A stretch of 64,000 nt of DNA from the human T2T-CHM13v2.0 reference genome, Homo sapiens, in assembly GCF_009914755.1 (NCBI RefSeq), contig NC_060940.1. One strand, 5' to 3'. A program made the position numbers and the translations under genes. The notes under the pieces were generated by a model. That model was not told the origin of the DNA. It did no database searches and saw only the letters and a program-made list of their open reading frames with translations. Positions 38,256 to 39,660 of the stretch are shown piece after piece (the first letter of the stretch is position 1; the number at the start of each line of letters is the position of its first letter).

Positions 38256-39660
38256 TATTCTTAAATTTTTTAAATTTTTTATTTTTCCATAAGTTATTGG
38301 AGTACAGGTGAAATTTGGTTACATGACTAAGTTCTTCAGTGGTGATTTGTGAGATTTTGGTTCACCCATCACCAGAGCAGTATACACTGCACTATATTTG
38401 TAGTCTTTTATCCCTCGCCCCTCTCCTACCATTCCCCCCAAGTCCCGAAAGTCCATTGTGTCATTCTTAAGCCTTTGCGTCCTCATAGCTTAGCTCCTAC
38501 ATATCGGTGAGAAGATACAATGTTTGGTTTTTCATTCTTGAGTTACTTCACTTAGAATAATAGTCTCCAATCTCATTCAGGTTGCTGAAAACGCCATTAA
38601 TTTGTTCCTTTTTATGGCTGAGTAGTATCCCATCATATAAATACACCACAGTTTCTTTATCCACTCGTTGATTGATGGGCATTTGGGTTGGTTCCATGAT
38701 TTTGCAATTGCAAATTGTGCTGCCATAAACTGCAAGTAGCTTTTTCATATAACTTTTTTTTCCTCTGAGTAGATACCCAGTAGTGGGATTGCTGGATGGT
38801 AGGTAGCTCTACCTTTAGCTCTTTAAGGAATTTCCACACTGTTTTCCACAGTGGTTGTACTAGTTTACATTCCCACCAGCAGTGTAGAAGTGTTCCCTGC
38901 TCACTGCATTTGTGCCAACATCTACTGTTTTTTGATTTTCTGATTATGGCCATTCTTGCAGGAGTAAGGTGCTATCACATTGTGGTTTTGATTTGCATTT
39001 CTCTGATCATTAGTGATGTTGAGCATTTTTCATATGTTTGTTGGTCATTTGTATATCTTCTTTTGAGAATTGTCTATTCATTTCCTTAGCCCACTTTTTG
39101 ATGGAATTGTTTGTTTTCTTACTGATTTGTTTGAGTTCTTTGTAGATTCTGGATATTTGTCCTTTGTTAGATGTACAGATTGTGAAGATTTTCTCCCACT
39201 CTGTGGGTTGTCTGTTTACTCTGCTTACTGTTCCTTTTGCCGTGCCAAAGCTCTTCAGGTTAATTAAGTCCCAACCATTTATCTTTGTTTCTATTGCATT
39301 TGCTTTTGGGTTCTTGGTCATGAAATCCTTGCCTAAAACACTGTCTAGAAGGTTCTTTTTTGTGTTTTTTTTTTTCTACCAGGGTGGATAGGAAAGGACC
39401 ATCAGGTGGGGGCAGGCTAGACGTGTCTTAGGTCAGACTCTCCTTGGGCGGATCTTGCTGCCGCTGAGTATTTGGGGTGTCTCCTGGGTCCTGAGGGAGC
39501 AGCCCACTTCCCTCAGAGGGTCTGTAGGTCCTCTTGGGATTGCTGGTTTGTTCTTGCAGTTGATCTGGAGCTAAAATTCACAATGTGAGTCTCTGCACCC
39601 TGCTCTGTCTGTCCGAGTTGGAGCTGTAATCTAGTCCTACCTCCCATCCACCATGATGAT
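38256..39660 (-). mobile_element. L1PB1 with L1PBa-type 5'UTR; both termini present, internally shortened (probable spliced integrant)
   Basis: 3'UTR and ORF2 end at 38256-39354 (peptide [25 protein letters not shown]). 5'UTR pieces at 39376-39660, minus strand atcatggtggatgggaggtaggactagattacagctcc. TSD cccc(t/a)atttct. Confidence 0.9.

What the first reader, a model, noticed from the sequence alone, without database searches (positions are those of the whole stretch)
38256..39660. Probable spliced L1 integrant (SpIRE-like) from the old L1PB lineage
Seen: on the minus strand the element reads as a 5'UTR start (39660-39467, ending ...gagacaccccaaatact) joined directly to cagcggcagcaagatccgcccaaggagagtctg (39466-39376), then ORF2 end, 3'UTR and tail. 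One TSD pair (38245-38255 / 39661-39671) bounds all of it. Recalled, not verifiable here: in the L1PBa 5' consensus, ccccaaatact is followed by GTGAGT, and cagccgcagcaag is preceded much further downstream by a pyrimidine-rich ...cccccacAG. Inference: the junction at 39467/39466 is an exact GT-AG intron removal, so a spliced L1 RNA was reverse-transcribed and integrated. Such integrants are established for young L1PA subfamilies, which have an unrelated 5'UTR. A case in L1PB would mean intra-5'UTR splicing, which removes promoter sequence, also acted on this extinct lineage.
Basis: partly seen in the sequence, partly recalled or inferred. Interest (0 to 1): 0.82.

Follow-up and report, generated by a model that had tools for sequence, protein, structure and literature searches.

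The report
Spliced copy of an old LINE-1
This 1.4-kb LINE-1 fossil was copied from an RNA whose leader had lost an intron by ordinary splicing, and about one in five leader-bearing copies of this extinct lineage show the same kind of loss.

Summary
On the minus strand, 39660-38260 is a LINE-1 with an A-rich tail and a 13/15 target-site duplication.

The junction 39467/39466 is an exact GT-AG removal. Long-form relatives carry ~656 nt there, starting GTGAGT and ending in a pyrimidine tract plus CAG. GT is kept in 25 of 26 long copies and AG in 24 of 26.

Twenty-two other human loci share the junction. They are scattered among long copies in a tree, and an AU test rejects a single origin (p 3.4e-7). 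The same donor is also joined to two other AG acceptors, with 72 and 15 pattern hits. In a sample of 100 5'UTR starts, 22 are spliced forms and 78 are unspliced.

The reading as a SpIRE-like integrant of a lineage whose 5'UTR differs from L1PA's is therefore supported and extended.

The second junction (39376/39375), which removes ~4.5 kb, is not a splice and is unique in the genome. Its origin is unresolved.

I could not check the subfamily name (L1PB), the Dfam consensus or primate orthologues.

The parts
39661..39675 (-). 5' copy of the target-site duplication (AAAAAGAAATTGGGG), preceded by TTGT, so the site reads TTGT/AAAAA like an L1 endonuclease site
   Evidence: sequence; 13/15 match to 38259-38245, reached by 13 of 20000 random 30-mers and 10 of 20000 shuffles. 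The endonuclease consensus is recalled.
39467..39660 (-). 5'UTR nt 1-194 ('exon 1'). It starts within 1-2 nt of the family's usual 5' end (g)gatcatcatgg and ends at the splice donor position ...aaatact|
   Evidence: It is 87-89% identical to the same stretch of long-form copies L009-L016. In those copies the next bases are GTGAGT.
39376..39466 (-). 5'UTR segment that lies ~656 nt further downstream in long-form copies (nt 852-942 of copy L012, 'exon 2', truncated). It begins right after the acceptor AG.
   Evidence: It is 81-85% identical to long-form copies, where it is preceded by ...cccccacAG.
39466..39467 (-). Junction J1: exact joining of donor exon to acceptor exon (ACT|CAG), with no microhomology
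   Evidence: alignment gap = nt 196-851 of L012; GT in 25 of 26 long copies, AG in 24 of 26.
39355..39375 (-). A-rich filler (A11 CAC A6 G) at junction J2. It is not alignable to the 5'UTR continuation (ctgaagacaaaggg...) or to the ORF2 sequence upstream of the breakpoint.
   Evidence: no other locus in the genome has this junction.
38287..39354 (-). Last ~1.07 kb of the L1: C-terminal part of ORF2 (decayed, many stops) and the 3'UTR
   Evidence: 85-88% identity to positions ~5.4-6.9 kb of full-length relatives; relative L012 has L1 ORF1 domains, endonuclease and RVT_1; only short open stretches; no Pfam match above cut-off in the window's own fragments.
38260..38286 (-). Degenerate A-rich tail (aaaaataaaaaatttaaaaaatttaag)
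38245..38259 (-). 3' copy of the target-site duplication (AATAAGAAATAGGGG)

Best explanation
The donor lies after nt 195 (ACT|GTGAGT) and the acceptor before nt 852 (pyrimidine tract plus CAG|). The numbering is that of genomic copy L012.

The spliced RNA was then reverse-transcribed and inserted by target-primed reverse transcription at TTGT/AAAAA. This gave the tail, the 15-bp duplication and a 5' end at the normal transcription start.

Shown: the junction equals an exact GT-AG removal. The same junction recurs at 22 other loci that are not one clade. The same donor is joined to two other AG acceptors at many further loci.

Inferred: the removal happened in RNA. No RNA was seen.

The copy also lacks ~4.5 kb between 5'UTR nt 942 and the ORF2 3' part, across a 21-nt A-rich filler. 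This second junction is not GT-AG and is unique. I think it most likely arose when the reverse transcriptase skipped along or between templates during the same insertion (about 45%). A later genomic deletion is the next choice (about 35%).
For: J1 boundaries: in 6 long-form elements, 656-689 nt lie between the two parts. They start GTGAGT (4), GTGGGT (1) or GCAAGT (1) and end ...cacAG. In an alignment of 26 long copies the donor dinucleotide is GT in 25 and the acceptor AG in 24. MAFFT places the gap of all short copies at nt 196-851.

Recurrence: 22 other loci carry the junction.

Independence: in the ML tree of 1339 shared columns (21 short, 26 long, plus the window) the short form needs 12 changes, and starred branches force at least 4. 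The AU test rejects one clade, p 3.4e-7.

Other acceptors with the same donor:
- nt ~1147 (ggaacAG|GTGCTGG): 72 pattern hits, 20 of 20 fetched confirmed. It needs 17 changes for 17 rows in the tree.
- nt 601 (ttttcttttgcAG|CTGGGAGG): 15 pattern hits, 7 of 7 fetched confirmed.

Natural control: 6 single-copy deletions in the same 5'UTR (L044, L066, L017 second gap, L054, L055, L057) are not GT-AG. Two of them show 4-6 nt of microhomology.

Insertion hallmarks: the duplication is 13/15, with a tail and a full 5' end.

The 5' and 3' parts have end branches typical of the family: 0.084 against a median of 0.097, and 0.068 against a median of 0.069.

The relatives are LINE-1 by Pfam.
Against: - No RNA evidence. 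Splicing is inferred from DNA fossils only.
- The window copy sits in an unresolved polytomy with both long and short copies. So it could descend from an already integrated spliced copy rather than from a fresh splicing event.
- It is not an otherwise full-length element, unlike described SpIREs.
- The acceptor at nt ~1147 has a 3-nt ambiguity (GTG), so only one of its four registers is GT-AG.
- The long-copy samples used in the trees were picked by pattern or similarity hits, not at random.
- The 78/12/7/3 split was read by eye from the first 100 of 218 listed hits.
- The family name and the state of the Dfam/Repbase consensus sequences (L1PBA_5, L1PBA1_5, L1PBB_5) could not be checked.
- For J2, nothing here separates an event at insertion from a later deletion.
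Confidence: 0.85

Rival explanations
1. J1 was inherited, not newly made. The window copy was transcribed from an already integrated short-5'UTR element, either a propagating short subfamily or a read-through transcript. Splicing would then have happened one or more generations earlier.
For: A few short copies cluster with support: (L026, L033) at 95/81, and (L035, (L036, L028)) at 98/81. The window copy is unresolved among long copies (L009, L012, L045) and short copies (L019, L021, L022, L031). Repbase lists a separate L1PBA1_5 entry, whose content I could not see (passage read).
Against: The AU test rejects one clade for the short form. The window copy's highest identity is to a long copy, B_L009, at 89% over 280 columns, and no starred set holds it. 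In one search the (L026, L033) pair is no longer resolved. The commoner 195/1147 form shows no clustering at all, with 17 changes for 17 rows.
Confidence: 0.1
2. J1 is a genomic deletion that happened after a long-form element had inserted here.
For: Single-copy deletions are common in these 5'UTRs. No outgroup orthologue could be examined.
Against: The same base-exact junction occurs at 22 other loci. It has no microhomology and GT...AG boundaries. The idiosyncratic deletions seen have neither property.
Confidence: 0.03
3. The recurrent short forms come from reverse-transcriptase template jumps or RNA recombination at preferred sites, not from the spliceosome.
For: The window copy's own second junction shows that non-splice rearrangements do occur in this family.
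Against: Three different recurrent junction classes all share one GTGAGT donor. All end at an AG preceded by a pyrimidine-rich tract. Template jumps would be expected to show microhomology, but J1 and the 195/601 junction have none.
Confidence: 0.03
4. For J2 only: the 5' 285 nt with its A-rich tract is a separate short polyadenylated retrocopy, and a 5'-truncated L1 later landed in its tail. A variant is that the reverse transcriptase switched onto the poly(A) tail of such a short RNA.
For: The filler looks like a decayed poly(A) tail (18 A in 21 nt). An insertion into a tail would leave the outer duplication around both parts.
Against: There is no AATAAA or ATTAAA in the 60 nt before 39376. 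No other locus has a 5'UTR ending at this point followed by A's: only the window itself among 7 hits, and only the window among 40 scored hits spans J2. No inner duplication is visible.
Confidence: 0.12

Closest known systems
SpIREs (spliced integrated retrotransposed elements) of L1PA1-L1PA6: SpIRE97/622, 97/790, 97/976 (Larson et al. 2018, PMC5860796, passages read)
   Same: One 5'UTR donor is joined to several acceptors. The junctions are exact GT-AG. The copies have duplications and tails and sit at many independent loci. They do not found lineages.
   Different: The 5'UTR and the splice sites are different: donor after nt 195, acceptors before nt 601, 852 and ~1147 of copy L012. The share is far larger: 22 of 100 sampled 5' ends here, against about 2% of full-length L1PA1-6 in that paper. 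That paper's L1.3-derived probes found none in L1PB. The window copy also lacks a further 4.5 kb, so it is not otherwise full-length.
Spliced L1 transcripts and processed L1 copies described by Belancio and colleagues (cited in PMC5860796; not read, recalled)
   Same: L1 RNA is a substrate of the spliceosome, and spliced forms can be retrotransposed.
   Different: That work concerns L1PA/L1Hs sequence. No RNA data exist for the lineage seen here.
Chimeric or rearranged L1 insertions made by template switching during target-primed reverse transcription (bioRxiv 10.1101/2025.02.02.635956, passages read)
   Same: As at J2: two same-orientation parts inside one duplication, a 5' part that reaches an RNA 5' end, and a 5'-truncated L1 as the 3' part.
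   Different: Here both parts are L1 of the same family and a 21-nt A-rich filler lies between them. The mechanism is not shown.

Membership tests
SpIRE (spliced integrated retrotransposed element) | The missing L1 segment is bounded exactly by a splice donor (GT) and a splice acceptor (AG) of the unspliced element | tested here: met
   the gap equals nt 196-851 of long copy L012. GT is present in 25 of 26 long copies and AG in 24 of 26. The donor reads GTGAGT, and a pyrimidine tract precedes the CAG.
SpIRE (spliced integrated retrotransposed element) | Hallmarks of L1-mediated insertion: target-site duplication, 3' A tail, endonuclease-like site | tested here: met
   13/15 duplication (13 of 20000 random controls reach it), an A-rich tail at 38286-38260, and the site TTGT/AAAAA. 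The endonuclease consensus is recalled.
SpIRE (spliced integrated retrotransposed element) | The same junction occurs at independent loci | tested here: met
   There are 22 other loci. They are not one clade.
SpIRE (spliced integrated retrotransposed element) | The element is otherwise full-length (described SpIREs were found among annotated full-length L1s) | tested here: not met
   The window copy lacks ~4.5 kb between 5'UTR nt 942 and the ORF2 3' part. Most of the other 22 loci do continue through the 5'UTR.
SpIRE (spliced integrated retrotransposed element) | The splice is seen in L1 RNA, and the spliced 5'UTR has lost promoter activity | not testable with these tools
   No RNA data or reporter assay are available. 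The lack of clustering of short copies (17 changes for 17 rows) only fits dead-on-arrival copies.
LINE-1 | ORF1 (L1 RNA-binding domains) and ORF2 (endonuclease, reverse transcriptase) in full-length relatives | tested here: met
   on long copy L012: Transposase_22 1e-31-class hits, Tnp_22_dsRBD, Tnp_22_trimer, and RVT_1 at 1.6e-30. The endonuclease match is below cut-off. The window's own ORF2 fragments gave no Pfam match above cut-off.
L1PB subfamilies (Repbase/Dfam L1PBa_5end type 5'UTR) | Match to the curated L1PB 5' end and 3' end consensus sequences | not testable with these tools
No Dfam or Repbase sequences are on hand. PMC9252281 (passage read) states that L1PB3-L1PB1 have a 5'UTR of their own.

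The most novel reading that the evidence does not exclude
The long 5'UTR of this extinct lineage held an efficient, maintained intron, with one consensus donor and at least three acceptors kept across its successive subfamilies. About one in five copies that keep the start of the 5'UTR are spliced forms, ten times the share reported for L1PA.

The intron may have been kept because it helped expression. It might carry promoter sequence, or it might shield the transcript from silencing aimed at intronless transcripts such as HUSH (PMC8770142). The steady loss of copies to splicing may have weighed on the lineage in its competition with L1PA.
Probability: 0.2. Interest if true: 0.75.

Novelty: new member of a known kind. 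Interest (0 to 1): 0.55.

Why it matters
SpIREs were described only for L1PA1-L1PA6, and the search that defined them used probes that cannot detect another 5'UTR. Here an unrelated 5'UTR of an older, extinct lineage shows the same fate, and much more often.

This gives a second, independent case for asking why L1 5'UTRs keep splice sites that cost them copies.

It also matters for annotation. Gaps of ~405, ~656 and ~950 nt in these 5' ends are splice products. They are not random deletions and not necessarily separate subfamilies.

The single locus in the window is one ordinary instance of this class, with an extra rearrangement.

Tried and rejected
- **J2 as a second splice.** The 5'UTR side reads ccctg|gtagct, but the window keeps 'gtag'. 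The ORF2 side has no fitting AG register (and reasoning). Rejected.
- **Filler as decayed ORF2 or 5'UTR sequence.** Ungapped comparison by eye on the output gives about 11 mismatches in 23 positions against ORF2 and 10 matches in 25 against the 5'UTR continuation. Rejected as homology.
- **Sibling copies with J2.** None: only the window among 40 scored hits spans it, and only the window among 7 hits has the A run.
- **False junction hits.** Four of the 18 junction-pattern hits (L037-L040) are unrelated sequence and were dropped.
- **Rows left out of the trees** because they cover too little or carry other gaps: L010 (only), L013, L015, L044, L047, L050, L054, L055, L057, L058, L060, L062, L064, L066, L068, L071, L076, and later L089, L093, L095, L096. 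L101 was left out as a duplicate of L100.
- **L050.** Its 268->852 junction is GT-AG compatible with a 2-nt ambiguity, but no second copy was found. I treat it as a single case.
- **Pfam on the window's own ORF2 fragments.** Nothing above cut-off.
- **Khan et al. 2006** is not held.
- **Literature.** Searches found no paper on spliced integrants of L1PB. Supplements of Larson 2018 were not opened.

Full report
**What is in the window**

Read on the minus strand, the element runs from 39660 to 38260. It is flanked by AAAAAGAAATTGGGG (39675-39661) and AATAAGAAATAGGGG (38259-38245), which match at 13 of 15 positions. That level was reached by 13 of 20000 random 30-mers of the window and by 10 of 20000 shuffles of the tail-end region. 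The repeat finder with an 8-nt seed did not list the pair, because mismatches break the seed.

The parts, in order, are:
- 194 nt that begin within 1-2 nt of the family's usual 5' end (39660-39467);
- 91 nt of 5'UTR sequence from further downstream (39466-39376);
- a 21-nt A-rich filler (39375-39355);
- about 1.07 kb of ORF2 3' part and 3'UTR (39354-38287);
- a degenerate A-rich tail (38286-38260).

The exceptions are that the filler was not mentioned and the duplication can be extended to 15 nt.

**What the relatives show at the first junction**

The window's genome is searchable. With the 285-nt 5' part as query, 40 of 1925 candidates were scored. One was the window itself. Seventeen others run across the junction at 79-86% identity, and 22 stop at nt 193-197 at 85-89% identity.

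I fetched 7.5-kb stretches of fifteen of these loci. Six copies (L009, L011, L012, L014, L015, L016) carry 656-689 extra nt between the two parts. The extra segment starts GTGAGT in four copies, GTGGGT in one and GCAAGT in one. It ends ...ctcacccccatcccccacAG. In a wider alignment of 26 long copies, the first two bases are GT in 25 and the last two are AG in 24.

The junction ACT|CAG shares no base with the deleted ends. The register is therefore unambiguous and equals an exact GT...AG removal. MAFFT places the gap of every short copy at nt 196-851 of copy L012, which I use as the coordinate reference.

L012 is a LINE-1 by Pfam. It has the three L1 ORF1 domains and RVT_1 at 1.6e-30, and an endonuclease match below cut-off.

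**Is the short form a subfamily or a recurrent product?**

I found 22 other loci with the window's junction: L017-L036, L075 and L076. L076 is badly decayed. Four of the 18 junction-pattern hits were unrelated sequence and were dropped.

I built a maximum-likelihood tree on 1339 columns shared by both forms, with 21 short copies, 26 long copies and the window. It puts short copies all along the ladder of long copies. The label needs at least 12 changes, and well-supported branches force at least 4. The best tree that holds all short copies together is 271 log-likelihood units worse, AU p 3.4e-7.

Two small supported clusters of short copies exist: L026 with L033, and L035 with L036 and L028. 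The first is not recovered.

The window copy lies in an unresolved polytomy with long copies (L009, L012, L045) and short copies (L019, L021, L022, L031). Its best identity is to long copy L009, at 89% over 280 columns. So the short form arose many times. Whether this particular copy came from a fresh splice or from a spliced parent is open.

**Same donor, other acceptors**

Copy L010 joins the same donor to nt ~1147, where long copies read ggaacAG|GTGCTGG. That junction has 72 pattern hits at up to 2 mismatches, 18 of them perfect. All 20 loci fetched carry it. In a 64-row tree, its 17 usable copies need 17 changes, which means no clustering at all. This junction has a 3-nt ambiguity (GTG), and only one of the four registers is GT-AG.

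I then took a sample that does not depend on what follows the donor: a perfect 18-mer at the end of 'exon 1', which gave 218 hits. The first 100 listed were read by eye. They gave:
- 78 unspliced;
- 12 of the 195/1147 form;
- 3 of the window's 195/852 form;
- 7 of a third form, ACT|CTGGGAGG.

In long copies that third sequence lies at nt ~601, after cccttttcttttgcAG. All 7 fetched loci confirm the 195/601 junction. Two of them (L100, L101) are one segmental duplicate, 97% identical including flanks. The 195/601 form has 15 pattern hits.

For comparison, the unspliced donor has 468 hits with a comparable pattern, and the window's junction has 14 true hits.

In a 70-row quick tree, spliced versus long needs 22 changes.

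As a natural control, six single-copy deletions in the same 5'UTR are not GT-AG, and two of them show 4-6 nt of microhomology. One further single copy (L050) has a GT-AG-compatible 268->852 junction with no second copy in the genome.

**The second junction**

At 39376/39375 the 5'UTR (nt 942 of L012) gives way to the filler and then to ORF2 sequence, about 1.4 kb from the end of the element. Some 4.5 kb are missing. The boundaries do not fit GT-AG in any register.

The filler does not align to either parent better than its A-richness would give. No other locus has this junction: only the window among 40 scored hits spans it, and only the window among 7 hits has the A run. No polyadenylation signal precedes it.

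The 5' and 3' parts have end branches typical of the family: 0.084 against a median of 0.097, and 0.068 against a median of 0.069. This fits one event but does not prove it.

My order of preference:
- a skip of the reverse transcriptase along or between templates during the same insertion, about 45%;
- a later genomic deletion, about 35%;
- a two-step or poly(A)-switch origin, about 12%.

Only orthologues can decide.

**Comparison with what is known**

Larson et al. 2018 (PMC5860796, passages read) defined SpIREs in L1PA1-L1PA6. One donor is joined to several acceptors, and SpIREs make up about 2% of full-length copies. With L1.3-derived junction probes they found none in L1PA7-17, L1PB or L1MA. 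Such probes cannot detect a different 5'UTR.

Campitelli et al. 2022 (PMC9252281, passage read) state that L1PB3-L1PB1 have a 5'UTR of their own. Repbase lists L1PBA_5, L1PBA1_5 and L1PBB_5 (PMC5753468, passage read). I could not see those sequences, so one of them may already be a short form.

Six full-text searches found no paper on spliced integrants of this lineage. Khan et al. 2006 is not held. The supplements of Larson 2018 were not opened.

An age of tens of millions of years is my inference from end branches of 0.07-0.10.

**Verdict**

The window holds one of at least 23 integrants of the 195/852 spliced form of an old LINE-1 lineage, which also left many 195/1147 and 195/601 integrants.

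It works like a SpIRE. It fails one membership feature, because it is not otherwise full-length.

The single locus is ordinary within its class. The class itself appears not to be in print. At roughly one in five 5' ends, it is far more frequent than in L1PA.

Noticed in passing
window 39676-39800 (minus strand): The 3' half of an Alu-like element lies directly upstream. Its A-rich tail runs into the L1 target site, so the L1 seems to have landed in or just after that tail.
   Followed up: no
L010 and L077-L096 (for example L077:1-1242): A second, commoner spliced form of the same 5'UTR joins the donor after nt 195 to the acceptor before nt ~1147. It has 72 pattern hits, and 20 of 20 fetched loci were confirmed. 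The copies are scattered in the tree.
   Followed up: yes
L097-L103: A third spliced form joins the donor after nt 195 to the acceptor before nt 601, behind a strong pyrimidine tract. It has 15 pattern hits, and 7 of 7 fetched loci were confirmed.
   Followed up: yes
L100 and L101 (contig C6, 57.46 and 61.69 Mb): These two loci are 97% identical over 1731 nt including flanks. They are one integrant copied by a pericentromeric segmental duplication.
   Followed up: partly
L050 (C5:13646387-13648650): A single copy has a different left boundary (AAG|GTCTGT at nt 268) joined to the nt 852 acceptor. It is GT-AG compatible with a 2-nt ambiguity, and no second copy was found.
   Followed up: partly
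L026 and L033 (contig C7, 97 kb apart): Two copies of the window's spliced form lie close together. They are 84% identical and have different upstream flanks. They paired with support in one tree but not in the other.
   Followed up: partly
listing: C4:9428846 and C8:7644094: The same unusual 12-mer follows exon 1 at both places. This is probably one copy inside a duplication shared by the two chromosomes.
   Followed up: no
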